Assembly (NCBI GenBank): GCA_036522495.1
Contig: DATDFS010000255.1
Coordinates: 1-24,000 of the forward strand
Length of the DNA: 24,000 nt
Reading direction: 5' to 3'
Origin: Nitrososphaeraceae archaeon
GTDB taxonomy: Archaea; Thermoproteota; Nitrososphaeria; Nitrososphaerales; Nitrososphaeraceae
Below the pieces are notes generated by a model, which searched no databases, was not told the origin of the DNA, and worked only from the letters and a program-made list of their open reading frames with translations. How positions within the stretch are numbered: the first letter of the stretch is position 1; every line of letters starts with the position of its first letter. This document shows positions 1,701 to 19,684 of this stretch, in pieces. The position numbers and the translations under genes are program-made.

Positions 1701-1724
1701 CAACATCATAGAGTAGTTTTGGTA

Positions 1725-2375
1725 ATGGTCTGGCTTAGACGTACAACGCACTATCTATTCATAGTTGTAGTTGCAGTAAACAGCACGCTATTGACAATTA
1801 ATGCAGGGGACTATATCTTCTACACAGACTGGGCTTGGACTTCATTTGTGGTGTTTTCGATTTCACAATCGACTATGCTTGCAGTAGGGGCCATATACTA
1901 TATGCTCTTTACAGGTGTTCCAGGAACCGCTACATACTATGCAACCATTATGACAATCTACACATGGGTTGCAAAGGGCGCGTGGTTTGCATTAGGATAC
2001 CCAATGGACTTCGTTACAGTACCAATATGGATACCCTCGGCAATGTTGTTGGATCTTACATATTGGGCTACAAGGCGCAATAAACACGCCGCCATTATCA
2101 TTGGTGGAACTTTAATTGGCCTTTCGCTCCCAATGTTCAACATGATAAATCTATTGCTGATAAGGGACCCGCTGGAGGTTGCATTCAAGTATCCAAGACC
2201 CACACTTCCTCCCTATATGACACCAATTGAGCCCCAGGTCGGTAAATTCTACAACAGTCCTGTAGCATTGGGTTCAGGTGCAGGAGCAGTATTAACAGTG
2301 CCAATAGCGGCATTAGGTGCAAAACTGAACACGTGGACTTACAGATGGATGGCCGCATGGAGTAAATGGGACTAA
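1725..2375 (+). CDS. amoA: Ammonia monooxygenase subunit A (archaeal AmoA), 216 aa
   Basis: The translation MVWLRRTTHYLFIVVVAVNSTLLTINAGDYIFYTDWAWTSF...KYPRPTLPPYMTPIEPQVGKFYNSPVALG...NTWTYRWMAAWSKWD is the highly conserved archaeal AmoA sequence recalled from Nitrososphaera and Nitrosopumilus. The track ORF begins at a TTG at 1719. The ATG at 1725 gives the canonical MVWLRR N-terminus. Confidence 0.97.
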   Translation: MVWLRRTTHYLFIVVVAVNSTLLTINAGDYIFYTDWAWTSFVVFSISQSTMLAVGAIYYMLFTGVPGTATYYATIMTIYTWVAKGAWFALGYPMDFVTVPIWIPSAMLLDLTYWATRRNKHAAIIIGGTLIGLSLPMFNMINLLLIRDPLEVAFKYPRPTLPPYMTPIEPQVGKFYNSPVALGSGAGAVLTVPIAALGAKLNTWTYRWMAAWSKWD

Positions 2376-2532: not shown

Positions 2533-5464
<2,932 letters not shown>

Positions 5465-5509
5465 TATCAAAGTACTCTTCCTTTTCCTGCTTTTAATGCT
5501 TTAGAATTC

Positions 5510-5690: not shown

Positions 5691-5870
5691 ATTATTGCAA
5701 GATATTGTATTTTCTTTAACTTATTATACTTTACATATTATTATAGAAGCATAATTTTATTCTAATTCTAGACACATAGTACGTATCCATCATGGAACAT
5801 ATTTGATGTATCAAAAAGCATCAATAAGAAAAACTAATAACTAAATACAACGTTCTAAGAATTGAGATCC

Positions 5871-6842
5871 ATGACAATATCTCTCGTTGCAACTGAACTT
5901 GGGTCCAAGGGTATCAAGTTCACAGCTTTTGAAAATACCCATATTGTTCGAGGAACTAGTCTAGTCAAACGTGGTTTTGCCCATATGCAAAAGCATGGCG
6001 TAATTATGGATGTCACCAATGTTGAGCAAGCACAGATCGCTGAAGATGCTGGTGCAGTTGCTGTTATGGTCTTAGACAAACTACCGTACGATGTAAGAAA
6101 GGCAGGAGGTGTTGCCAGGACTGCTAGTATTAAGGTAATCAACGATATCATGGATGCCATTACTATTCCCATAATGGCAAAATGTAGAATTGGGCATGTT
6201 TCAGAAGCTAAAGTATTGGAATCAACTGGCGTAGATATGATAGACGAGAGTGAAGTTTTGACTCCTGCAGACGAAGTACGGCATATTTGGAAGTGGGATT
6301 ATACAACACCCTTTGTCAATGGTGCAAAGAACCTTGGCGAGGCTTTAAGAAGAATTGAAGAAGGATGTGCAATGATTAGAACAAAGGGTGAGCCAGGAAC
6401 TGGTAATGTTGCTGAAGCTGTTACCCATATTAAGATGGTAAATAATGAAATCCGAATGATTCGCTCAATATATCAAGATCAAGATTATCAAGAATTGATA
6501 AAATTCTCAAGAGAGCTAAAAGTTTCTTTTTCATTGGTTGAAGAAACTGCCCGACTAGGCAGGCTACCTGTAGTAAATTTTGCAGCAGGTGGAGTTTCTA
6601 CTCCTGCAGATGCAGCATTTTTAATGAATCTAGGATGCGATGGTGTATTTGTGGGATCTGGTATTTTTAAGGCAGATGATGCATCTCAGCGAGCAAGGGC
6701 AGTAGTACTTGCTACCACGTACTTTGATAATCCAAAGGTTGTTGTTGAGGCGCAGAAAATGGTTGATGAGAAAAAATCTATTCTTGGGCTTGATACAAAG
6801 AATCTCGAATTAAAAATGCAGGAACGAGGTCCTTCTACTTGA
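5871..6842 (+). CDS. pdxS: Pyridoxal 5'-phosphate synthase, lyase subunit PdxS
   Basis: [58 protein letters not shown] and [13 protein letters not shown] are classic PdxS/SNZ motifs. The track start is a TTG at 5862; the ATG at 5871 is preferred. Confidence 0.95.
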
Positions 6843-7474
6843 AGGGTGAAGTCACAATCGGAGTAATTGGAGTTCAGGGAGATATTGAAGAGAATATAGC
6901 TGCCACCAAAGAAGCATTAAAACATATGCAATTAAAGGGTACTGTGGAACCTGTTCGCTATTCTGAAGAGATTGAAAAAGTGGATAGTCTAATCTTACCT
7001 GGCGGTGAAAGCACTGTGATTAGCACTCTAACTGCAATACAAGGAGGAACGCTCCAGACTATAAGAAGACTTGTGTCTAATGGCATGCCTATAATGGGAA
7101 CTTGTGCTGGGATGATTATGCTTTCAAAACGTGCTTATGATAGAGTAGTAGGGGAAACTAAACAACAACTAATGGGTAATTTGGATATTGTTGTTGAACG
7201 AAATGCATTTGGAAGACAGAACGATTCGTTTGAGGCTGATCTTGAAATATCTACTCTTGGAAAGAATACATTCAAGGGCATCTTTATTAGATCTCCTATA
7301 GTAAGAGAAGTTGGAGATAGGGTAGATAAAATAGCTGAATTTAATAATAAAATTGTTGCAGTAAAACAACAGAATATTATCGGTACTGCTTTCCATCCGG
7401 AATTGTCTGGAGACGATAGACTCCACAGATATTTCATCAACATAGTAATAGATTTCAAGAAAAAGCAGCAATAA
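6839..7474 (+). CDS. pdxT: Pyridoxal 5'-phosphate synthase, glutaminase subunit PdxT
   Basis: [28 protein letters not shown] (catalytic Cys) and AFHPEL (His/Glu) motifs. The TTG start overlaps the pdxS stop by 4 nt (TTGA), the typical pdxST coupling. Confidence 0.9.
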
Positions 7475-7709: not shown

Positions 7710-7783
7710 GCCTTGGTAGCTCAGCCTGGTAGAGCGTTGCCTTGGTAAGGCAAAGGTCGCGGGTCCAAGTCCCGCTCAAGGCT
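7710..7783 (+). tRNA. tRNA-Thr (anticodon GGT), intron-less
   Basis: GCCTTGG TA GCTC AGCCTGGTA GAGC G TTGCC TTGGTAA GGCAA AGGTC GCGGG TCCAAGT CCCGC TCAAGGC T. All four stems pair, with one G-U at 7:66. The T loop reads UCCAAGU rather than the usual UUCRAAU. Confidence 0.9.
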
Positions 7784-11153: not shown

Positions 11154-12464
11154 TTATGGAAGCAATGGTGCTAAGTCGGGAGGAAGCTGCGGAAATCTTG
11201 GAGGCTGTGGTAATTCTGGAAGTGGTCCTAAACCAGGCCGCTGGGGTTGTTGGATTTGTGAAGATGTATTTGGTCTAGGTTGCAGAGTTGCTGTTAGATC
11301 CATTACCTTTCCAGATCTATTTACTGTAAGCTTAATGTTGTCTCCTACCCTCTTATGCGACTCGATATAGTTGATTATATCATCAATCTGTCTTGTAGGA
11401 TGTCCATCTATTGCTGTTATGATATCGCCAATGTGTGTGTTAGAACCACTCATGTCCTGAGTAGTCGCCTGCAGCCCTGCTTTGTCGGCAGGGCTTCCAG
11501 ACTGAACTGATCCTACTACCGCACCTTTGTAATTTGCAGGTAACCCTGCACTCTTAGTTATAACAGGAGTTATTTTTCCACCAGATATTCCAAGCCATGG
11601 ATGAATATAAGTTCCATTTTTTATAAGCAACGGTACTTCTTTAGTGATTGTATTTGAAGGAATTGCAAATCCTATTCCAGAGTAAGATCCGGTTCTAGAA
11701 AGTATAGCAGTATTCATTCCAACAACCTGTCCTTGCATATTCAGTAAAGGCCCACCTGAATTGCCAGGATTAATTGCAGCGTCTGTCTGAATTCCATTTG
11801 GTATGGAAAATCCAGTATCTGGATTTGGCAATAATCTTCCTTGTGCGCTGACAATACCTGTTGTTATAGTACCACTAAGTCCAAACGGATTACCAATAGC
11901 TACTACTGGTTCGGCAGTTCTTATATTAGAAGAGTTTGCAATTGGAAGTGGTATAACTTTCTCTTCTGAAAAATTATCTGTAATCTGCAGTATGGCTAGA
12001 TCTGCAGAAGCATCTTTTCCTATAACTTTTGCAGAGTACGTGTTTCCGTCAGTAAATGTCACATCTGCGTTCGTTGCATTTGCTACAACATGATAGTTAG
12101 TAATTATATCTCCTTGTTTATCGTATACAAATCCCGAACCCAACGCTGTACTTTTTCCGCTTGCAGGGATACCATTTATAATAATGACCTGATTAGGGTC
12201 AGACCTTGTACTTGTTATTTGAACTACAGAGTTTTCTACTCTCTTGAAGACATCAGGTAATGAAGTAGCAGAAGACACTGAGGGTGAAGATGAAGTAGAA
12301 TAAGCAGAGTGGTTTGCTAGGTATGTTGATAATGGTTGAAGTTTTTGTTGTTGTGCCATGATGGAGTGCAGTGGGATAATCAAAACTGCTGCTGATGATG
12401 CGATTATAGTAGTTCCAATTACTCCCACTAATAATAAAATTGCTTTTCTAACATTATCTACCAT
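11154..12464 (-). CDS. HtrA/DegP-family serine protease with N-terminal membrane anchor, one PDZ domain and a proline-rich C-terminal tail
   Basis: Trypsin-like triad context: ITNYHVV (His), DLAILQ (Asp), GNSGGPLL (Ser). A PDZ-like segment follows (GAVVGSVQSGSPADKAGLQ...GDIITAIDG). N-terminal TM segment AILLLVGVIGTTIIASSAAVLII. Tail reads QPQRPGLGPLPELPQPPRFPQLPPDLAPLLP. Confidence 0.9.
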   Translation of the reverse strand: MVDNVRKAILLLVGVIGTTIIASSAAVLIIPLHSIMAQQQKLQPLSTYLANHSAYSTSSSPSVSSATSLPDVFKRVENSVVQITSTRSDPNQVIIINGIPASGKSTALGSGFVYDKQGDIITNYHVVANATNADVTFTDGNTYSAKVIGKDASADLAILQITDNFSEEKVIPLPIANSSNIRTAEPVVAIGNPFGLSGTITTGIVSAQGRLLPNPDTGFSIPNGIQTDAAINPGNSGGPLLNMQGQVVGMNTAILSRTGSYSGIGFAIPSNTITKEVPLLIKNGTYIHPWLGISGGKITPVITKSAGLPANYKGAVVGSVQSGSPADKAGLQATTQDMSGSNTHIGDIITAIDGHPTRQIDDIINYIESHKRVGDNIKLTVNRSGKVMDLTATLQPRPNTSSQIQQPQRPGLGPLPELPQPPRFPQLPPDLAPLLP

Positions 12465-13309: not shown

Positions 13310-13897
13310 ATGTTGCCCATACAAAATATATTTCTATTATCTTTATTGATGGCAATGCCTTTATTATCAATCACCACCGTCCAAAAAATTGCATTAGCAC
13401 AAACGAACGATGGTAATTTCTTGAAATATGAAAGTCCCACTTATGGATTTAAAATACAATATCCATCAAATTGGGAAAAGTTAGAATTCGCTCTAGGAAT
13501 TGAGGAGGAACATCGCAATATCGTTGTTAATTTTCTCTCACCAGCAGGAGGTGCGTCGAATGCATTTAGAGAATATCTTATAATAGAAGTCAGGAATTTA
13601 ACATCTCAGGATACATCACTGGGTCAGTATATCGACACACAAATTAATTTAAGACAAGCTTTGCCAAATTTTAGTCTTAGTGAATCAACTCCAACAAGCC
13701 TTGCAGGAGGTTATCCAGCACACAAAATAATCTATACCTATAGTAATCCTATTGTAGGAATAACTAAAGCAATGGAGATTTTGACAATAAAGCATGATAA
13801 GCTATATTTTCTTTCATACAGTGGAGACGCAACAAAATACGGTATTTACTTGCCAATCGTACAAAAAATGATTGATTCATTCCAGATAACTAAATAA
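13310..13897 (+). CDS. Secreted or exported protein of unknown function (possibly PsbP/Mog1-like fold family common in soil AOA)
   Basis: N-terminal signal-like segment IFLLSLLMAMPLLSITTVQKIALAQ. The mature part begins FLKYESPTYGFKIQYPSNWEK, a motif I associate with PsbP-like extracellular proteins. No catalytic motif recognised. Confidence 0.6.
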   Translation: MLPIQNIFLLSLLMAMPLLSITTVQKIALAQTNDGNFLKYESPTYGFKIQYPSNWEKLEFALGIEEEHRNIVVNFLSPAGGASNAFREYLIIEVRNLTSQDTSLGQYIDTQINLRQALPNFSLSESTPTSLAGGYPAHKIIYTYSNPIVGITKAMEILTIKHDKLYFLSYSGDATKYGIYLPIVQKMIDSFQITK

Positions 13898-14397: not shown

Positions 14398-15768
14398 TCA
14401 CTTTATCTCTTTTACAAACGTATTGTATATAGATAGAGCATCTTCTTCGTCTTTCGCACCAACTATTGTTGCAGCACCACTCGTCAAGAAACTAACAGAC
14501 AATTTACCGGCATTATTACTTATCGCAGTTATTCCCAAATTACCTCTAGTTTTGACTTGATACCCTAACGCTTGTGCATTCTTTACTATTCCTATCAGAC
14601 TAATTGGTGAAGATAGCTCTGATGGAGTAACAGTATAGGTTCTCTTACCGCTATCTCTCCCACAAAGCTCTTCAATTATCAACTGCTGCTGTGCAATTAG
14701 CTTCACTTCCTTTATTTCCTTCTTTGAACCACATGAAGGACATTCCTCCTGTCTAAAGACATGGATCTTGTCAAATGAAAGTTCGTTTAAGTCGATATAA
14801 AGCAATTTGTTCACAAGTGTTGGTTGCTGTCCTGTGATTATCTTAATTGTTTCTGATACTTGGACACCGCTCACTAGATATAATATTGACGGATGTACTC
14901 CTTCAGTGCTGCAAGTCGGCATATCATCCTCAGCCAATGCGGGGAATATACATCGTAAACATGCAGATTTATTAGGAAGGATAGTGCAAACTGAACCTAG
15001 CATTCCTAATGCTCCCGCATAAATAAAGGGGATGTCGAATTTAATGCATGCATCGTTTAATGCATATCTTGCATCAATGCTATCAAGCGCGTCAATAACA
15101 ACATCAAACCCTTTGATAATACTTTCAGCTGTATATTTACTAACAGAAACTGGAACAGCTTCGATTTCAACTGTGGGATTTATCCCTTTCAAACGTTCTA
15201 CTGCTACTTCAACCTTGACTTTACCAATGTCATTCTCCGTGTAAAGATGTTGTCTATGTAAATTTGAAATCTCTATTACATCTCTATCAACTATTTTTAG
15301 TTTGCCAATACCCATTGCGGTTAATTGCGTTACAATAGGATTTCCAATTCCGCCAACTCCAATCACGCAAATTTTAGAGTCGCGCAGTTTTTCCATTCCA
15401 GTAAATCCTATTTCTTCAAGCATTATCTGTCTTGAATAGCGTTGTAAATCTTCGTTTGTAAGTTTCGCTCCACCTGCCACTGCTGGTAATATATACACAG
15501 AATCACCATCCGAAAGCGATTTTGCCATACCATCAGTACTGAAGCGCATGTTCTTGCCATTGATATAAATATTAATTAGAGCACGCGGTTTGCCATTAAG
15601 ATCGAATACTCTTCGCTTAAAATCCTCTCCCATAAAGTCAGAAATTTTCGTGAATGCGTCATGTAAGTTGCTAGCTTCTAACGGAACCTTCTTTTCTCCA
15701 GCACCTCTGTTCAAGACGGAGGGGATTATGAATTCAACTCTAGCCATTTTATCTGTTCCCACCATCAT
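14398..15768 (-). CDS. Fusion protein: N-terminal MoaD/ThiS-like ubiquitin-fold domain ending in internal Gly-Gly, MoeB/ThiF-type E1 adenylyltransferase, and an unassigned C-terminal domain of about 100 aa
   Basis: Residues 8-100 read ARVEFIIPSVL...INIYINGKNMRF...LSDGDSVYILPAVAGG, the typical MoaD/ThiS C-terminus. The E1 opening RYSRQIML follows directly. Then come the nucleotide loop ICVIGVGGIGN, DRDVIEISNLHRQ, CLRC (270-273) and CPSC (343-346) zinc motifs, and PTCSTEGV (Cys286). Residues about 356-456 have no motif I recognise and do not form a rhodanese domain. Possible starts are ATG at 15768, 15765 or 15747; the last has a GGTGG Shine-Dalgarno-like element upstream. Confidence 0.85.
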   Translation of the reverse strand: MMVGTDKMARVEFIIPSVLNRGAGEKKVPLEASNLHDAFTKISDFMGEDFKRRVFDLNGKPRALINIYINGKNMRFSTDGMAKSLSDGDSVYILPAVAGGAKLTNEDLQRYSRQIMLEEIGFTGMEKLRDSKICVIGVGGIGNPIVTQLTAMGIGKLKIVDRDVIEISNLHRQHLYTENDIGKVKVEVAVERLKGINPTVEIEAVPVSVSKYTAESIIKGFDVVIDALDSIDARYALNDACIKFDIPFIYAGALGMLGSVCTILPNKSACLRCIFPALAEDDMPTCSTEGVHPSILYLVSGVQVSETIKIITGQQPTLVNKLLYIDLNELSFDKIHVFRQEECPSCGSKKEIKEVKLIAQQQLIIEELCGRDSGKRTYTVTPSELSSPISLIGIVKNAQALGYQVKTRGNLGITAISNNAGKLSVSFLTSGAATIVGAKDEEDALSIYNTFVKEIK

Positions 15769-15782
15769 ATATACGCATATGG

Positions 15783-17006
15783 TTATCTAATCATCGCTGA
15801 AACTAATTGAACATCTGGTTTTACAGCTTTAAGTTTAGGAAGTACATCTATAATTGCTTCGGTAGACTTGAGCCCGTTGCCAGTGATATAGCAAACTACC
15901 GTTTCATCATTATCGATCTCGCCATCTTCAATTAGCTTTCTGAGTACTGCTACTGAAACCCCTCCAGCTGGTTCCGTAAATATGCCTTCCGTTTTAGCGA
16001 GTCTCAATATTCCATCAATAATTTCTTCATCAGTAGCCTCTTCTGCAATTCCATTATATTGTCTTAATCTTTTCAATACGTATAATCCGTCTCCTGGATC
16101 CCCTATTGCAAGACTTTTCGCAATCGTTTCTGGTCTTTCGACTGGAATAACATCATTACTTTTTCTCTTGAAAGCAGAGACCACTGGAGCACATCCATGA
16201 GGCTGTGCAGCAGTAATCTTCAGATTTGCCACATTATTGATGAATCCTAATCTTTCTAATTCTTCGAAGCCTTTGCAAATTGCATTTAACATCGCACCGC
16301 TTCCAACCGGAATTATTAGATGGTCAGGAACCTGCCAATTCATCTGCTCAGCTACTTCGAAAGCAAGTGTCTTTGAGCCTTCGACATAGTATGGCCGCAT
16401 ATTTATGTTCACAATTCCAATACCTTTCGAGTCACCAATTACTGAAGCAACTCTATTGGCATCATCATATGTTCCATCCACTGTAACAAATTCAGCGCCA
16501 TATGATAATGCTTGTGATATTTTAACGTGCTCAATATCAGAAGGGGCAAAAATATAGCATGGCAGTTCTGCTTTAGCAGCATGAGCTGCTGTTGCTGAAG
16601 CAAGGTTACCTGTAGATGCACAGCCTACCGCCTTTAATTTGATTTCTTTAGCTCGTGAGACAGCTACTCCTGCAGGTCTATCTTTGAACGAGAACGTGGG
16701 ATTTACAGAATCATTTTTAATATAGAGGTTTTTCAGGCCGCCTATTTCTTTACCGAGTCTATTAGCATGTTGCAGAGGAGTAAAACCAGCATTCAGATTT
16801 ACAATATTGCCTTTATCAGCAATCGGAAGTAGTTCGAAATAGCGCCAATAAGTTTTATCTTGTCTTGATACAAAGATATCCTTTCGTACATTAGAAGTAT
16901 CATAAATAACATCAAGCGGACCAAAACACTCTTCGCATATGTATCTGAATTGAGGTTCGTATTTTTTGCCACATTCTCTGCACTTTAAAGATTGTATAAT
17001 GCCCAT
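15783..17006 (-). CDS. Threonine synthase family PLP enzyme with N-terminal zinc ribbon (ThrC or ThrC-like)
   Basis: CRECG...CEEC zinc ribbon (C9, C12, C24, C27). PLP-lysine motif NPTFSFKDRPA (K108). GCASTGN and PVGSGAM loops. 407 aa. Its stop lies 14 nt (or 35 nt) upstream of the Ubl-E1 start on the same strand. True ThrC versus paralog cannot be decided by eye. Confidence 0.85.
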   Translation of the reverse strand: MGIIQSLKCRECGKKYEPQFRYICEECFGPLDVIYDTSNVRKDIFVSRQDKTYWRYFELLPIADKGNIVNLNAGFTPLQHANRLGKEIGGLKNLYIKNDSVNPTFSFKDRPAGVAVSRAKEIKLKAVGCASTGNLASATAAHAAKAELPCYIFAPSDIEHVKISQALSYGAEFVTVDGTYDDANRVASVIGDSKGIGIVNINMRPYYVEGSKTLAFEVAEQMNWQVPDHLIIPVGSGAMLNAICKGFEELERLGFINNVANLKITAAQPHGCAPVVSAFKRKSNDVIPVERPETIAKSLAIGDPGDGLYVLKRLRQYNGIAEEATDEEIIDGILRLAKTEGIFTEPAGGVSVAVLRKLIEDGEIDNDETVVCYITGNGLKSTEAIIDVLPKLKAVKPDVQLVSAMIR

Positions 17007-17176: not shown

Positions 17177-17521
17177 TTATTTCTTTTCTAATAGATTATG
17201 AAAACATGATCGATTACCGGTGTGACAGGCGGGAGCCTTTGAATCTACCACATATAACAAGGCGTCAGAATCACAGTCAACCAATATCTTGGTAATACGC
17301 TGGATGTTTCCAGACTCTTCCCCCTTCATCCATAATTTGCTACGGGAAGTACTCCAAAAACAAGCATTTCCTGTTTTTATAGTACAATCAAGTGCCTCTC
17401 TGTTAGCATATGCTAACATAAGGATATCTTTTGTATTTCGGTCTTGAACTATAACAGGTATCAAACCATTTCGTTTTACAAAATCAATTTCTTGTATAGA
17501 CTTAGCATTCATATGCTTCAT
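17177..17521 (-). CDS. hisI: Phosphoribosyl-AMP cyclohydrolase (monofunctional HisI)
   Basis: LIPVIVQD...[40 protein letters not shown] and [10 protein letters not shown] are the conserved HisI motifs, including the Cys zinc ligands. Confidence 0.9.
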
Positions 17522-18319
17522 ATCATCCTTAGTTGTAATAGGCTAAGGCAAAAATAAACTAACTGTTTATGTGAGAAAACAAATTCAAGTAGGATTAGTC
17601 CACAAATAAGCACCCTTTCTTACAGAATCCTCATGAAAAAGTAAGATATGGGATTCTGATTTAGATGAGTCGCTTACAAAGGTTAACAATATGATTAACC
17701 ACATGTCTCAAGTTAAAGTATCCTCACTATCATATGCGTAGCTCAGTTGACTAAGTTAGATCAATTTCATACAATATCTAATGGAAATATTAACAAAATA
17801 AATATATTTATTTGGAATAAAAATTACCAATTGACACCGGTTGGCCTCTGATGTTCTTTGTGTTCTAGTTTCTTGTGCCGTTCCTTGTCCCGTTCTGTTG
17901 TAAGTATGATGCCACATATCTCAAACTTAATGTTTGGAGAGGAATAGCTGGTTTCTTATTTCTGTTGTCATTACCCACTACGTTTTATCAAAGTAGGTTT
18001 TCAAGAAGATGGCTACTGATAGTTACATAAGACCGAATTAGAATCAATATAAAATTCAACAGAATTTAAAAAGATTGAATAATTAGTTCTAAATTCTTCC
18101 AATTATGAAACTGCATATTGATTGTGATTCATAATTAATAAAATATCAGATAAATATGATAAATCCTATAAAATCTTAGTTATATGTCAATAATGCATAA
18201 TTCATGATAGTAGCCAACGATAAACTGAAAATATAATGTTCTTAACGATATTACTATGTTAAGCAAACTACTCATCATAGTTAAATAACTACAACAATTT
18301 ATTGTACTAAAGAAACGTG

Positions 18320-19684
18320 ATGAACATCATCAAGGACCACCCTTGTGAAATTCTACATATTGGATTTGATGATACCGATTCAACATTAAGTAGATGCACT
18401 ACCCAATTGGCATTTAAAATTACAGATTATTTGTTAAAGGAAGATGCAAAGTTTATTGATTATCCATTGTTAATTAGATTAAATCCAAATGTTCCATGGA
18501 AGACTCGCGGCAATGGTGCTGTATGCCTACGGATTAGTGTAAAAAGCCATGACAAAATAATTGAATGTATAAAACAAAGTATAGAAGAGGGTTCTAACAT
18601 AGGTGCAGGTGCAAACCCAGGTATTGTCTTTTTTAAAGGAGATAAAGTGCCAGATATTATAAAAGAGTTCAGCCGAATTGCAATGTTTGACATCCTAAGC
18701 AGACAAAAAGCAGAAAAGGTTGCAAAAGAACATTTCCTAGAATATGCCGCCTTTGGAAATGGTCAAGGTTTAGTAGGGTCATTGGCTGCAATTGGTTGTT
18801 TATTACAGCGGGATCACACATTTGAAGCCATAGCGTACAGAAAACCAGAATATTGTGGCACCGCTAGAATAGTAGATGTGTCAAAGGTAATTGAATATAG
18901 TAAAAATACATTCCCACACACCTTCAATAACTACGATCAAAATCACAGACGTATATTAATTACACCTCATGGACCCGATCCTGTTTTCTGTGGTATAAGG
19001 GGCGAATGCCCTGAAGTGGTAGTTTCATCACTGGAAAGGTTAGGAATAGAGGAGAAATTAGATGGATATATGGTTTTTCGCTCCAACCAAGGGACTAATA
19101 TGCATTTACAAAACGAATTAAAATTATCACATATCAAAGCTTATACAGCTGGCTATATCCGTTGTAAAATCAGTGCGAAGCCATGCATTATGCAAGGGGG
19201 CCATGCATTATTTGAGATAGAAGACCCTAATGGAACCATCTGCTCAGCTGCAATATATGAGCCAACTGGTTTAACAAGTATCGCTTCAAAGCTCGAAATG
19301 GGCGACTTTATTGAAATTGGATGTGGCGTTAGAAAAGCGACATTAAAACATCCAAAAATTTTGAATATAGAGTATCTTTCCATCTTGAAACTTGTTCAAA
19401 TATACGATATGCTTAATCCCTTATGCAAATCGTGTGGAAAGCGAATGAAATCAGAAGGAAGAAATAAGGGATTCCAGTGTGACAGATGTAAATATAAAGA
19501 CAGGACTAGAAAGAAGATTCGTATACTGCGGAATAGAAATATAAAGACAGGACTATATCTGCCAAGCCCAAAATCACACAGACATTTAACCAAACCTATT
19601 CACAGGTATGGCATGGAAAAGTTGTCTGTAGGTTTTTATCCAAAATCAAATCTATTTGCTAGATGGTTTTATTCTTCTAGATAG
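18320..19684 (+). CDS. tiaS: tRNA(Ile2) 2-agmatinylcytidine synthetase TiaS
   Basis: N-terminal LHIGFDDTDS....CTT motif characteristic of TiaS. Length is about 450 aa. An OB-like middle region is followed by a C-terminal zinc ribbon CKSCGKRMKSEGRNKGFQCDRC. The track start is a GTG at 18317; the ATG at 18320 is adjacent. Confidence 0.85.
   Translation: MNIIKDHPCEILHIGFDDTDSTLSRCTTQLAFKITDYLLKEDAKFIDYPLLIRLNPNVPWKTRGNGAVCLRISVKSHDKIIECIKQSIEEGSNIGAGANPGIVFFKGDKVPDIIKEFSRIAMFDILSRQKAEKVAKEHFLEYAAFGNGQGLVGSLAAIGCLLQRDHTFEAIAYRKPEYCGTARIVDVSKVIEYSKNTFPHTFNNYDQNHRRILITPHGPDPVFCGIRGECPEVVVSSLERLGIEEKLDGYMVFRSNQGTNMHLQNELKLSHIKAYTAGYIRCKISAKPCIMQGGHALFEIEDPNGTICSAAIYEPTGLTSIASKLEMGDFIEIGCGVRKATLKHPKILNIEYLSILKLVQIYDMLNPLCKSCGKRMKSEGRNKGFQCDRCKYKDRTRKKIRILRNRNIKTGLYLPSPKSHRHLTKPIHRYGMEKLSVGFYPKSNLFARWFYSSR

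What the first reader, a model, noticed from the sequence alone, without database searches (positions are those of the whole stretch)
14398..17006. ThrC-family PLP enzyme tightly linked to a sulfur-carrier-like Ubl fused in cis to its own E1, plus an unassigned C-terminal domain
Seen in sequence: a 456-aa ORF joins three parts. Residues 8-100 look like a MoaD/ThiS beta-grasp protein ending in the diagnostic ...ILPAVAGG. There is no stop codon; the chain continues directly into a MoeB/ThiF E1 with its nucleotide loop, two CxxC zinc motifs and the PTCSTEGV cysteine. About 100 further residues follow that match no rhodanese or other motif I know. Its start is 14-35 nt from the stop of a zinc-ribbon threonine-synthase-family gene on the same strand, so the two are very likely one transcript. 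Established knowledge: MoaD/ThiS/CysO/HcyS-type carriers are adenylated and thiocarboxylated at a free C-terminal Gly-Gly by E1-like enzymes. They donate sulfur to PLP enzymes, as in CysO-CysM in Mycobacterium and HcyS-MetY in Wolinella. By recall only, a ThrC homolog that uses O-phosphohomoserine plus a sulfur carrier to make homocysteine has been reported in Streptomyces. Inference: this pair may be a protein-thiocarboxylate route to a sulfur amino acid, with homocysteine from O-phosphohomoserine the obvious guess. The open puzzle is that the Gly-Gly is internal. The carrier must either be cleaved off, and no JAMM/Mov34 protease is in this window, or act in an unknown cis mode. The extra C-terminal domain could be a docking or sulfur-relay module.
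Basis: partly seen in the sequence, partly recalled or inferred. Interest (0 to 1): 0.7.

Follow-up and report, generated by a model that had tools for sequence, protein, structure and literature searches.

The report
Methionine-type sulfur-carrier operon in ammonia-oxidizing archaea
The gene annotated "threonine synthase" and its neighbour annotated "molybdopterin-synthase adenylyltransferase" in ammonia-oxidizing archaea most likely form a protein-thiocarboxylate route to homocysteine (a MetM/MetO-type pathway), with the small sulfur carrier made as the front end of its own activating enzyme.

Summary
Two minus-strand ORFs lie 14 nt apart (35 nt from the likelier Met8 start). One is a zinc-ribbon ThrC-family PLP enzyme (15783-17006). 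The other has three parts: a ThiS/MoaD-like domain ending ILPAVAGG, a MoeB/ThiF-type E1, and a C-terminal domain (14398-15768).

The pair is adjacent in 78 of 78 informative loci from AOA species, and the Gly-Gly is invariant.

The ThrC-like enzyme does not group with structurally solved threonine synthases. It sits in a distinct clade (92-97% NJ bootstrap), here called "RPYY-type". In that clade:
- about 73 of 76 metagenomic loci have a ThiS-like carrier directly downstream;
- 19 of 78 have a SAM riboswitch upstream;
- E1, JAMM protease and NIL genes recur nearby;
- about half of the carriers carry extra residues, or whole fused domains (NIL, E1), after Gly-Gly.

Not new: the Ubl-E1-TBP fusion was catalogued in Thaumarchaeota in 2010 and 2024 and read as MoaD-MoeB. 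The "unassigned" C-terminal domain is TBP-like. Published tables show two AOA genomes with no Moco genes, one E1 and two JAMM genes.

Unresolved: whether AOA also carry a canonical ThrC.

The parts
15783..17006 (-). ThrC-family PLP enzyme of the 'RPYY-type' (MetM-like) clade, 407 aa
   Evidence: ORF. Pfam PALP and TIGR00260 hits. Signature motifs and clade placement.
16914..16985 (-). N-terminal CxxC...CxxC zinc ribbon of the ThrC-like enzyme (C9, C12, C24, C27)
   Evidence: Translation check. The cysteines are conserved in clade alignment A7.
16683..16685 (-). Predicted PLP-binding lysine K108 (SFKDR). It aligns with K61 of Thermus ThrC.
16365..16406 (-). Clade signature INMRPYYVEGSKTL. It replaces the canonical NSVNPxRxEGQKT, in which S155 and R160 bind substrate phosphate (roles recalled from memory).
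15748..15782 (-). Short spacer between the thrC-like stop and the probable Met8 start of the fusion gene. It contains an SD-like GGTGGG at 15758-15763.
   Evidence: Sequence. The spacer ranges from -8 to 56 nt across 78 AOA loci.
15469..15747 (-). ThiS/MoaD-like (MetO-like) beta-grasp carrier domain, residues 8-100, ending ILPAVAGG
   Evidence: Pfam ThiS and NCBIfam SAMP1/moaD_arch hits. BLASTP/tblastn to ThrC-linked free carriers: 33-39% identity, E 5e-10 to 1.5e-16 for the three closest; weaker (26-29%, ~1e-5) for three others. Secondary structure of the AF2 model.
15469..15474 (-). Internal Gly99-Gly100, the predicted processing and activation site
   Evidence: Invariant in 69 full-length AOA fusions. 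It is followed by one small residue and then the E1 N-terminus.
14719..15468 (-). MoeB/ThiF/UbaA-type E1 adenylation domain, residues 101-350. Features: RYSRQ, GVGGIG loop at 15343-15360, CLRC at 14950-14961, Cys286 at 14911-14913, CPSC at 14731-14742.
   Evidence: Pfam ThiF. PDB ThiF/MoeB hits. Conservation. Coordinates.
14401..14685 (-). C-terminal TBP-like domain, residues 362-456, with invariant Cys369 (14662-14664) in EELCGR
   Evidence: Profile hits to TBP in PDB and Pfam. AF2 model with pLDDT 86. Foldseek top hits are archaeal TBPs. NF009123 covers residues 109-450.
17177..17521 (-). hisI (PRA-CH) upstream on the same strand. It is syntenic in most AOA loci and is not considered part of the system.

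Best explanation
The two genes are an archaeal version of the MetM/MetO thiocarboxylate pathway for homocysteine.

Shown:
- The genes are a tightly spaced, universally conserved pair in ammonia-oxidizing archaea.
- The PLP enzyme belongs to the carrier-linked, SAM-riboswitch-regulated ThrC clade.
- The first ~100 residues of the second protein are homologous to the carriers encoded next to such enzymes.
- They end in an invariant Gly-Gly joined directly to the N-terminus of an E1.

Inferred mechanism:
1. The two genes are co-transcribed.
2. The Ubl-E1-TBP protein is a precursor. A JAMM/MPN+ metalloprotease encoded elsewhere cuts after Gly100. This releases a ~93-aa carrier with a free Gly-Gly carboxylate, plus the E1-TBP enzyme.
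3. The E1 adenylates the carrier with ATP.
4. A persulfide converts the acyl-adenylate into a carrier thiocarboxylate. The persulfide could come from a cysteine desulfurase or rhodanese, possibly relayed by Cys286 or by the invariant Cys369 of the TBP-like domain.
5. The ThrC-like PLP enzyme eliminates phosphate from O-phospho-L-homoserine. It lets the thiocarboxylate, instead of water, attack C-gamma.
6. By analogy with CysM/CysO/Mec, the carrier-homocysteine adduct rearranges and the same JAMM protease hydrolyses it. This gives homocysteine and recycled carrier.
7. Homocysteine is methylated to methionine.

This is the only E1 in the two AOA genomes tabulated in 2010, so it may also serve other Ubl functions.
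For: Adjacency and fusion
- Present in 78/78 informative AOA species loci. ThrC is 70-95% identical and the fusion 53-92%.
- Flanking genes differ between loci.
- GG and ILPAVAGG are invariant in 69 fusions.

Clade membership of the ThrC-like enzyme
- The enzyme shares the signature NPT[F/L/H]SFKDR[P/V], STGNL, N[IL]RPYY[AV]EGSKT and E[PT]AGGV with that clade.
- NJ bootstraps: the clade excludes four solved ThrCs at 96%; it is monophyletic at 92%; AOA plus seven context-validated members form a clade with only clade members at 97%.

Context of individually sampled non-AOA clade members
- A ThiS gene lies downstream in 6 of 8 looked up.
- hom and/or thrB lie in the same operon in 2.
- SAM riboswitches occur in L008 and L010.
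- A non-clade control, P0137, has no ThiS.

Systematic scan of 80 metagenomic loci
- Carrier directly downstream in 70-73 of 76 informative loci.
- NIL gene in 47.
- E1 within 3 kb in 26.
- Bona fide JAMM ORFs in 9, for example L102: E1-ThrC-Ubl-E1-JAMM.
- Carriers with 1 to about 90 residues after GG in about half. These include Ubl-NIL fusions.
- Two Ubl-E1 fusions have the same GG-x-...RYSRQ junction: L147 (directly after ThrC) and L123.
- A SAM-I riboswitch lies upstream in 19/78 loci, and no other riboswitch class was found.

Carrier homology
- Ubl domain versus ThrC-linked carriers: 33-39% identity and E 5e-10 to 1.5e-16 for L007, L008 and L097; 26-29% and about 1e-5 for L011, L093 and L094.
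- It matches the ThrC-linked ThiS of L093 but not the second ThiS in that locus.

Literature
- MetM is a ThrC homologue that makes homocysteine from O-phosphohomoserine and MetO-thiocarboxylate, with Mec and MoeZ (10.1101/2024.10.14.618325).
- S. albulus metM has a SAM riboswitch, and the Microcystis homologue has a metO-like neighbour (PMC12172450).
- Archaeoglobus fulgidus has ThrC, MoaD-like and E1 as three separate adjacent genes (PMC2948915 supplement).
- C. symbiosum and N. maritimus have 1 E1, 2 JAMM and no MoaA/B/C/E, MoeA or MobA.
Against: - No biochemical or genetic datum exists for any archaeal member.
- I could not obtain S. albulus MetM/MetO sequences, so orthology to the characterised enzyme rests on context (SAM riboswitch, carrier neighbour) and on a paper's reported 51.6% identity for a cyanobacterial relative.
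- I could not determine whether AOA have a second, canonical ThrC. If they do not, this enzyme must also, or instead, make threonine.
- PMC7603488 speaks of a threonine synthase acquired by the AOA ancestor. A list in that paper's supplement names only arCOG01434 as ThrC, though which list it belongs to was not established.
- hisI is also syntenic, so synteny within AOA alone is weak evidence.
- No JAMM gene is linked to the pair in any of 80 AOA loci.
- Cleavage after Gly100 is inferred, not observed.
- NCBIfam and Pfam models do not separate this clade from ThrC.
- The tree is NJ only.
Confidence: 0.68

Rival explanations
1. Dual-use enzyme. The ThrC-like protein is the only ThrC-family enzyme in AOA. 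It partitions O-phosphohomoserine between threonine (water attack) and homocysteine (carrier thiocarboxylate attack), so charging of the carrier sets the Thr/Met branch ratio.
For: - No second ThrC could be shown.
- PMC7603488 describes a threonine synthase gained at the AOA ancestor, and a list in its supplement names only arCOG01434 as ThrC.
- Two archaeal relatives place the enzyme and its carrier in one operon with hom and thrB.
- The Microcystis MetM homologue showed weak threonine synthase activity in vitro (PMC12172450).
Against: - T88, R160 and N188 of Thermus ThrC are replaced throughout the clade, including AOA. Their roles as phosphate ligands are recalled from memory.
- Microcystis, which carries a MetM homologue, also keeps a canonical ThrC2; whether Streptomyces does rests on memory only.
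- Absence of a second ThrC in AOA was not demonstrated, only not testable here.
Confidence: 0.15
2. Coincidental neighbours. The first gene is an ordinary threonine synthase. The second is the cell's general Ubl-activating enzyme, used for tRNA thiolation or SAMP-like protein conjugation. They sit together only through inherited synteny.
For: - Both current annotations say so, and TIGR00260 is passed.
- hisI is equally syntenic.
- The E1 is the only one in two AOA genomes, so it must have other clients if AOA thiolate tRNA this way.
Against: - The ThrC-carrier link recurs far outside AOA, in about 73/76 metagenomic loci with unrelated flanks. It comes with E1, JAMM, NIL and SAM riboswitches.
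- A. fulgidus has ThrC-Ubl-E1 as separate adjacent genes.
- The fused Ubl is most similar to the ThrC-linked carriers.
- The enzyme is not in the canonical ThrC clade.
Confidence: 0.1
3. The fused Ubl is never released. It is a regulatory, docking or decoy domain, as proposed for Campylobacter-type Ubl-ThiF fusions. A separate free carrier encoded elsewhere carries the sulfur.
For: - Iyer et al. 2006 noted that Ubl-ThiF fusions usually co-occur with a stand-alone ThiS and suggested a different role for the fused domain (PMC1779556).
- AOA genomes hold two MoaD-family Ubl domains.
- L123 has both a free carrier and a Ubl-E1 fusion.
Against: - The Gly-Gly and its ILPAVAGG context are invariant and identical in style to the free carriers.
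- No free carrier lies near the pair in 80 AOA loci.
- The second AOA Ubl was, per the 2010 paper, fused to Cgi121.
- In L147 the fusion replaces the free carrier.
- C-terminal extensions after GG are frequent in this family and imply routine processing.
Confidence: 0.08
4. Standard MoaD-MoeB pair for molybdopterin synthesis. This is how the fusion was labelled in the 2024 fusion survey and in many database names.
For: Source names such as 'molybdopterin-synthase adenylyltransferase'. PMC11237513 files it under Moco biosynthesis.
Against: - C. symbiosum and N. maritimus have zero MoaA, MoaB, MoaC, MoaE, MoeA, MobA and ModA in the arCOG table.
- No moa genes are in the window or in neighbouring loci.
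- MoeB/ThiF/UbaA equivalog models all score far below their cutoffs.
Confidence: 0.02

Closest known systems
MetM/MetO/Mec/MoeZ pathway of Streptomyces albulus (Hasebe et al. 2024, as summarised in 10.1101/2024.10.14.618325 and PMC12172450)
   Same: - A ThrC-homologous PLP enzyme sits next to a ThiS/MoaD-type carrier.
- Relatives of the enzyme have an upstream SAM riboswitch.
- An E1 and a JAMM hydrolase are needed.
- O-phosphohomoserine is the implied substrate, since hom and thrB lie in archaeal operons.
   Different: - Here the carrier is translated as the N-terminal domain of its own E1.
- The E1 carries a TBP-like domain instead of MoeZ's rhodanese.
- There is no riboswitch.
- The JAMM gene is unlinked.
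- The host is an archaeon.
- Direct sequence comparison with MetM/MetO was not possible.
CysM/CysO/Mec+/MoeZ cysteine pathway of Mycobacterium tuberculosis (from established knowledge)
   Same: A carrier thiocarboxylate attacks a PLP-bound intermediate made from an O-phospho amino acid. A JAMM protease releases the amino acid and can trim the carrier.
   Different: The PLP enzyme is a CysK/CysM-type enzyme, not ThrC-type. The substrate is O-phosphoserine. All components are separate proteins.
Archaeoglobus fulgidus ThrC (404 aa) - MoaD-like (88 aa) - E1 (267 aa) gene triplet (PMC2948915 supplement)
   Same: The same three functions appear in the same order on one strand in an archaeon. It is the plausible unfused ancestor-like state.
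   Different: The genes are separate, and the E1 is too short (267 aa) to carry an extra C-terminal domain. It is uncharacterised.
Ubl-E1-TBP architecture in Thaumarchaeota (Makarova & Koonin 2010) / 'MoaD-MoeB fusion' cluster 356.1 (PMC11237513, 2024)
   Same: This is the same protein family. The domain order was already recorded, in 61/98 thaumarchaeal assemblies and in Rokubacteria/NC10.
   Different: In what I read of those papers the fusion was not linked to the neighbouring ThrC gene or to methionine. The later one filed it under molybdopterin synthesis.
Campylobacter-type Ubl-ThiF fusions (Iyer, Burroughs & Aravind 2006, PMC1779556)
   Same: A Ubl domain is fused to the N-terminus of a ThiF-type E1. 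[quoted passage not shown]
   Different: That Ubl family was described as distinct from ThiS. It usually accompanies a free ThiS in thiamine operons. Here no free carrier is linked, and the partner is a ThrC-type enzyme.

Membership tests
MetM-type (carrier-thiocarboxylate-dependent) homocysteine synthase | ThrC-fold PLP enzyme with the Schiff-base lysine | tested here: met
   PALP E 2.6e-73. K108 in SFKDR aligns with K61 of Thermus ThrC.
MetM-type (carrier-thiocarboxylate-dependent) homocysteine synthase | Groups with carrier-linked, SAM-riboswitch-regulated ThrC homologues rather than with proven threonine synthases | tested here: met
   NJ tree and bootstraps of 92-97%. Shared motifs. Contexts.
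MetM-type (carrier-thiocarboxylate-dependent) homocysteine synthase | Sulfur-carrier (MetO-like) gene adjacent | tested here: met
   The carrier domain starts 14-35 nt downstream, fused to the E1. Conserved in 78/78 AOA loci.
MetM-type (carrier-thiocarboxylate-dependent) homocysteine synthase | Sequence orthology to the characterised S. albulus MetM | not testable with these tools
   The paper (PMC11497804) and the sequence are not held. Only indirect links via PMC12172450 are available.
MetM-type (carrier-thiocarboxylate-dependent) homocysteine synthase | Forms homocysteine from O-phosphohomoserine plus carrier-COSH; a separate ThrC provides threonine | not testable with these tools
   Needs enzymology. 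The genome-wide ThrC count could not be obtained.
ThiS/MoaD/CysO/MetO sulfur-carrier proteins | Beta-grasp domain recognisable by family models | tested here: met
   Pfam ThiS 26.7 bits, above 22.5. SAMP1/moaD_arch hits fall below their cutoffs. AF2 secondary structure is beta-beta-alpha-beta-beta, but pLDDT is only 50-84.
ThiS/MoaD/CysO/MetO sulfur-carrier proteins | Gly-Gly at the free C-terminus | tested here: not met
   GG is present and invariant, but internal and followed by 356 residues. About half of the ThrC-linked carriers elsewhere also have residues after GG, so a processed free end is plausible but unproven.
MoeB/ThiF/UbaA E1-like adenylyltransferases | Rossmann nucleotide loop, RYxRQ arginine finger region, two CxxC zinc motifs, conserved cysteine | tested here: met
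   Pfam ThiF E 3.2e-76. ThiF/MoeB structures E 1e-37 to 1e-42. Motifs conserved at 95% or more in 69 sequences.
MoeB/ThiF/UbaA E1-like adenylyltransferases | Reaches the curated cutoff of a specific equivalog (MoeB, ThiF, MoeZ, UbaA) | tested here: not met
   The best scores, 206-218 bits, fall short of cutoffs of 275-449. The subfamily is unassigned.
Molybdopterin synthase sulfuration pair (MoaD-MoeB) | Occurs in genomes with MoaA, MoaC, MoaE and MoeA, usually near them | tested here: not met
   None in the window or in related loci. The arCOG table gives 0 for all of them in two AOA genomes. This organism's whole genome was not available.
TBP-like fold domains fused to E1 enzymes | Single beta-alpha-beta4-alpha repeat resembling one TBP half | tested here: met
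   AF2 pLDDT 86. Foldseek top hits are archaeal TBPs with probability 0.96-1.0, though E is only 0.02-0.06 and TM 0.43-0.50. The profile hits TBP in PDB at E 0.0045, and Pfam TBP in 12/18 members.

The most novel reading that the evidence does not exclude
Ammonia-oxidizing archaea have a single ThrC-family enzyme that serves as the branch point for both threonine and methionine. The outcome is decided by whether a thiocarboxylated carrier is docked. The cell's only E1 is made as a polyprotein with that carrier, so carrier and activator are produced 1:1. The precursor may even be matured or activated in cis, with the N-terminal fusion placing Gly-Gly next to the partner subunit's active site, without a dedicated JAMM step.
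Probability: 0.12. Interest if true: 0.85.

Novelty: new variant of a known kind. Interest (0 to 1): 0.58.

Why it matters
Ammonia-oxidizing archaea are among the most abundant microbes in soils and oceans. In the 120 closest database matches, every name a source gives to the second gene is an E1/MoeB/ThiF-type label.

If the reading here is right:
- The first gene is mis-annotated as threonine synthase.
- The second is mis-annotated as a molybdopterin or thiamine enzyme, even though published tables show two AOA genomes lack the molybdenum-cofactor pathway.
- Methionine synthesis in these organisms would run through a protein thiocarboxylate. This affects metabolic models, auxotrophy predictions and sulfur budgets.

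The fusion also offers a natural case of a ubiquitin-like protein encoded in front of its own E1. That bears on how precursor processing by JAMM proteases arose before eukaryotic ubiquitin.

The broader clade analysis gives a practical sequence signature and context rule for separating MetM-like enzymes from true threonine synthases. The rule is a carrier downstream, a SAM riboswitch, and NIL/E1/JAMM neighbours. Current curated models do not make this separation.

Tried and rejected
- Full-length AF2 model of the fusion from a shallow alignment gave pLDDT 57.6. I used it only for secondary structure. The E1 part was too poor for a fold search or for judging cis geometry.
I pruned rows until one was accepted.
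- The Hasebe 2024 paper is not held, so there are no MetM/MetO reference sequences.
- The search for a second AOA ThrC failed:
  - literature searches;
  - supplements of PMC7603488 and the GapMind preprint;
  - cluster-name look-ups of 30 representatives.
  None identified one or excluded one.
- NCBIfam does not discriminate the clades.
- ThrC homologues fused to PadR or LeuA_dimer domains first looked like possible carrier fusions. They are not, and they lie outside the clade.
- Control context P0153 was uninformative because the contig was short.
- P0132 and P0140 have no called carrier gene downstream, and no convincing uncalled one.
- The bacterial sigma-70 promoter/terminator scan was not run because the host is an archaeon.
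- Rejected ideas:
  - molybdopterin role;
  - thiamine role (archaea use a ThiS-independent thiazole route, from memory; no ThiS arCOG member in AOA);
  - internal translation start to make a separate E1 (no conserved Met after GG).

Full report
**What is in the window**

The window comes from an ammonia-oxidizing archaeon (AOA). An archaeal amoA lies at 1719-2375, and the closest database relatives are Nitrososphaeraceae.

On the minus strand, hisI (17177-17521) is followed by a 407-aa ThrC-family ORF (15783-17006). After 14 nt comes a 456-aa ORF (14398-15768).

- A ThiS/MoaD-like segment is detected: Pfam ThiS above its gathering score, and SAMP1 and archaeal MoaD models below their cutoffs.
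- This segment ends ILPAVAGG at residues 93-100.
- It runs without a stop into a ThiF/MoeB-type E1 (Pfam ThiF E 3e-76; E. coli ThiF/MoeB structures E 1e-37 to 1e-42).
- The E1 has the GVGGIG loop, two CxxC motifs and PTC286STEG.

Most homologues start at the equivalent of Met8. A GGTGGG lies 10 nt upstream of that codon. The true spacer is therefore probably 35 nt and the protein 449 aa.

**The C-terminal domain**

It is a TBP-like domain.
- A profile of residues 356-456 from 18 AOA sequences hits TATA-binding proteins in the PDB. The best E is 0.0045, and 9 of 12 hits are TBPs.
- 12 of the 18 members touch Pfam TBP.
- An AlphaFold model of the domain has pLDDT 86 with a beta-beta-alpha-beta4-alpha order.
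- Its best Foldseek matches in the PDB are archaeal TBPs. Probability is 0.96-1.0, but E is only 0.02-0.06 and TM 0.43-0.50.
- NCBIfam NF009123, a MoeB/ThiF subfamily model, spans residues 109-450, so E1 plus this domain is a known bacterial architecture too.
- The domain carries an invariant cysteine in EELC369GR. I flag it as a possible sulfur-relay residue. That is inference only.

**What the literature already says**

- Makarova and Koonin (2010, PMC2948915) list "Ubl-E1-TBP in Thaumarchaeota" as a fusion shared with bacteria.
- A 2024 survey (PMC11237513) finds a "MoaD-MoeB" fusion in 61 of 98 thaumarchaeal assemblies and in Rokubacteria/NC10. It files the fusion under molybdopterin synthesis.

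So the fusion itself is not new. What I did not find in the held literature is any link between it and the neighbouring ThrC gene or methionine.

The 2010 supplement is still useful.
- It shows CENSYa_2045 (ThrC arCOG01434) next to CENSYa_2046 (E1, 458 aa).
- In Archaeoglobus fulgidus it shows ThrC (404 aa), a MoaD-like protein (88 aa) and an E1 (267 aa) as three consecutive genes.
- Its phyletic table gives C. symbiosum and N. maritimus one E1, two JAMM proteases and two MoaD-family domains. It gives them zero MoaA, MoaB, MoaC, MoaE, MoeA, MobA and ModA.

The molybdopterin reading therefore fails for those genomes.

**Conservation in AOA**

A scan of one genome per species with the ThrC-like protein returned 80 loci. 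They come from Nitrososphaera, Nitrosopolaris, Nitrosocosmicus, Nitrosotalea, Nitrosopumilaceae and Marine Group I.
- In 78 loci the fusion gene follows directly as a single full-length match (53-92% identity). The other two contigs end at the ThrC stop.
- Spacing ranges from -8 to 56 nt.
- Outer flanks differ between lineages.
- hisI is also usually retained, so AOA synteny alone is not strong evidence.
- In 69 full-length fusions ILPAVAGG is invariant. It is followed by one small residue and then the normal E1 N-terminus (...L[TS]xx[DE][LM]xRYSRQ). A few lineages have 3-10 inserted residues right after GG[AS].
- No JAMM-motif ORF and no second carrier lie within 6 kb in any AOA locus or in the window.

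**What kind of ThrC this is**

A search of 1.8 billion cluster representatives gave the 150 nearest relatives. I aligned them with AOA sequences and with the five solved threonine synthases whose aligned sequences were printed. This shows a sharp signature split.

| Group | Motifs |
|---|---|
| Solved enzymes and their relatives | NPTGSFKDRG, STGNT, NSVNPxRxEGQKT, PVGNAGN, EPASAA |
| AOA protein and about 50 representatives | NPT[F/L/H]SFKDR[P/V], STGNL, N[IL]RPYY[AV]EGSKT, P[VM][GA]SG, E[PT]AGGV |

In Thermus numbering (checked) this replaces T88, R160 and N188. From memory of the Thermus ThrC structural work, these bind the substrate and product phosphate that steers water addition. An arginine appears three positions earlier.

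An NJ tree puts all these "RPYY-type" sequences in one clade, with AOA inside it. In 100 bootstraps:
- the clade excludes the four solved bacterial ThrCs 96 times;
- it is monophyletic 92 times;
- the smallest clade joining AOA to seven context-validated members contains only RPYY-type sequences 97 times.

Curated NCBIfam models do not separate the two groups.

**What that clade does elsewhere**

Of eight non-AOA RPYY-type representatives looked up individually, six have a ThiS-family gene immediately downstream.
- One is from Thermoplasmatota, with homoserine dehydrogenase next.
- One is from a euryarchaeal MAG, with homoserine dehydrogenase and a GHMP kinase next.
- One is on an archaeal-looking contig.

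Two, including a Micromonosporaceae gene without an adjacent carrier, have a SAM riboswitch directly upstream. A non-clade control has no carrier.

A metagenome scan with a clade alignment gave 80 further loci. Among 76 with enough downstream sequence:
- 70 have a carrier ORF within a strict window, and three more overlap the ThrC end;
- 47 have a NIL-domain gene;
- 26 have an E1 on the same strand within 3 kb;
- 9 have an unmistakable JAMM protein (E..CG...YHSH..PS.TD), for example E1-ThrC-Ubl-E1-JAMM in L102.

SAM-I riboswitches precede the ThrC-like gene in 19 of the 78 loci scanned. No other riboswitch class appears.

This is the published MetM/MetO pattern:
- MetM is a ThrC homologue that makes homocysteine from O-phosphohomoserine and MetO-thiocarboxylate.
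- It needs the JAMM hydrolase Mec and the E1 MoeZ.
- It is often mis-annotated as threonine synthase.
- S. albulus metM has a SAM riboswitch, and the Microcystis homologue has a metO-like neighbour plus a separate canonical ThrC2.

**The internal Gly-Gly**

The fused domain is homologous to these ThrC-linked carriers. For the three closest (L007, L008, L097) identity is 33-39% and E is 5e-10 to 1.5e-16. For L011, L093 and L094 it is 26-29% and about 1e-5. In a locus with two ThiS genes it matches only the ThrC-linked one.

Among the metagenomic carriers with complete ends:
- 32 stop exactly at GG;
- 20 have one extra residue;
- 8 have two or three;
- 9 have longer tails.

The longer tails include three Ubl-NIL fusions.

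Two Ubl-E1 fusions have the same junction as in AOA:
- L147: ...IIPAIAGG-SLSEDEVERYSRQ, 29 nt after the ThrC-like gene.
- L123: ...VIPVIAGG-QDLTSEQMLRYSRQ.

Material after Gly-Gly is therefore routine in this family, and whole-domain fusions have arisen repeatedly. This implies a processing step. JAMM proteases are the known agents for CysO, HcyS, QbsE and MetO (established knowledge), and AOA genomes encode two.

Cleavage after Gly100 is my inference, not an observation.

**Best reading and its limits**

I conclude with about 0.7 confidence that the pair is a MetM/MetO-type homocysteine system. In it the carrier is produced as a precursor fused to its E1-TBP activator.

The main gap is that I could not count ThrC-family genes in an AOA genome.
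- If a canonical ThrC exists elsewhere, the simple model stands.
- If not, the enzyme must also make threonine. That would be the more novel outcome.

One paper says the AOA ancestor acquired "threonine synthase", and a list in its supplement names only arCOG01434. This keeps the second possibility open.

Other gaps:
- no direct comparison with S. albulus MetM;
- an NJ-only tree;
- no biochemical data;
- an unlinked protease.

Noticed in passing
window 1719-2375 (+): Archaeal ammonia monooxygenase subunit A (Pfam Archaeal_AmoA, E 1e-115). It identifies the source as an ammonia-oxidizing archaeon.
   Followed up: partly
window 2533-5470 (-): Two overlapping ORFs encode a two-subunit 2-oxoacid:ferredoxin oxidoreductase (POR/POR_N/PFOR_II, then TPP_enzyme_C/PFO_beta_C). 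PMC7603488 says the transition to the AOA ancestor involved loss of pyruvate ferredoxin oxidoreductase, so the substrate of this one would be worth checking.
   Followed up: no
window 5862-7474 (+) and 7710-7783 (+): A PdxS/PdxT (SOR_SNZ + SNO) pyridoxal-phosphate synthase pair with overlapping stop and start, followed by a tRNA gene. PLP supply is encoded about 8 kb from a PLP enzyme. This is probably coincidence.
   Followed up: no
window 11154-12464 (-) and 13310-13897 (+): An HtrA-like trypsin-PDZ protease with a Pro/Gln-rich C-terminal tail, and a PsbP-like protein with an N-terminal hydrophobic leader. PsbP-family proteins in a non-photosynthetic archaeon are unexplained.
   Followed up: no
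window 18317-19684 (+): TiaS (tRNA-Ile2 agmatidine synthetase: TCKD, FLD and zinc-ribbon domains), transcribed divergently from the hisI-thrC-E1 block. The same arrangement is seen in L029 and L055.
   Followed up: partly
P0155, P0176, P0206, P0260 and P0141, P0161, P0185, P0222: Zinc-ribbon ThrC homologues outside the RPYY-type clade are fused at the C-terminus to a PadR winged-helix regulator (about 490 aa) or to a LeuA allosteric domain (about 615 aa). This suggests ligand-regulated or DNA-binding threonine synthases.
   Followed up: partly
P0144 (679 aa) and P0219 (739 aa): RPYY-type ThrC homologues with 260-340-residue N-terminal extensions that hit no Pfam family at E<0.01. PMC11237513 reports cysH-thrC fusions in Thermoplasmata, which these might be.
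   Followed up: no
L113, L129, L162 (about 20-200 nt after the ThrC-like gene): Carrier proteins fused through their Gly-Gly to a NIL domain. NIL genes accompany 47 of 76 RPYY-type ThrC loci. The role of NIL in this pathway is unknown.
   Followed up: partly
L102, L103, L107, L108, L115, L117, L118, L121: Two different E1-like genes flank the ThrC-carrier pair, one upstream and one downstream. Why two adenylyltransferases are kept is unexplained.
   Followed up: no
L093 4777-5046 (-) and 7377-7655 (+): Two ThiS-family genes lie in one euryarchaeal locus. Only the one directly after the ThrC-like gene resembles the AOA fused carrier.
   Followed up: partly
L034 and L070 (both MAG SMAG_U2105): One MAG carries two copies of the thrC-like/fusion pair on different contigs (81% and 76% identical to the window's ThrC). 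This could be strain mixture, contamination or a real duplication.
   Followed up: no
L027, L030 and others, C-terminal part of the fusion; L001: Some Nitrososphaeraceae lineages have 20-40-residue low-complexity inserts between the E1 and the TBP-like domain, and inside the TBP-like domain. Separately, the Nitrosopolaris-labelled protein P0064 sits on a 7.4-Mb ENA contig, larger than I would expect for an AOA genome.
   Followed up: no
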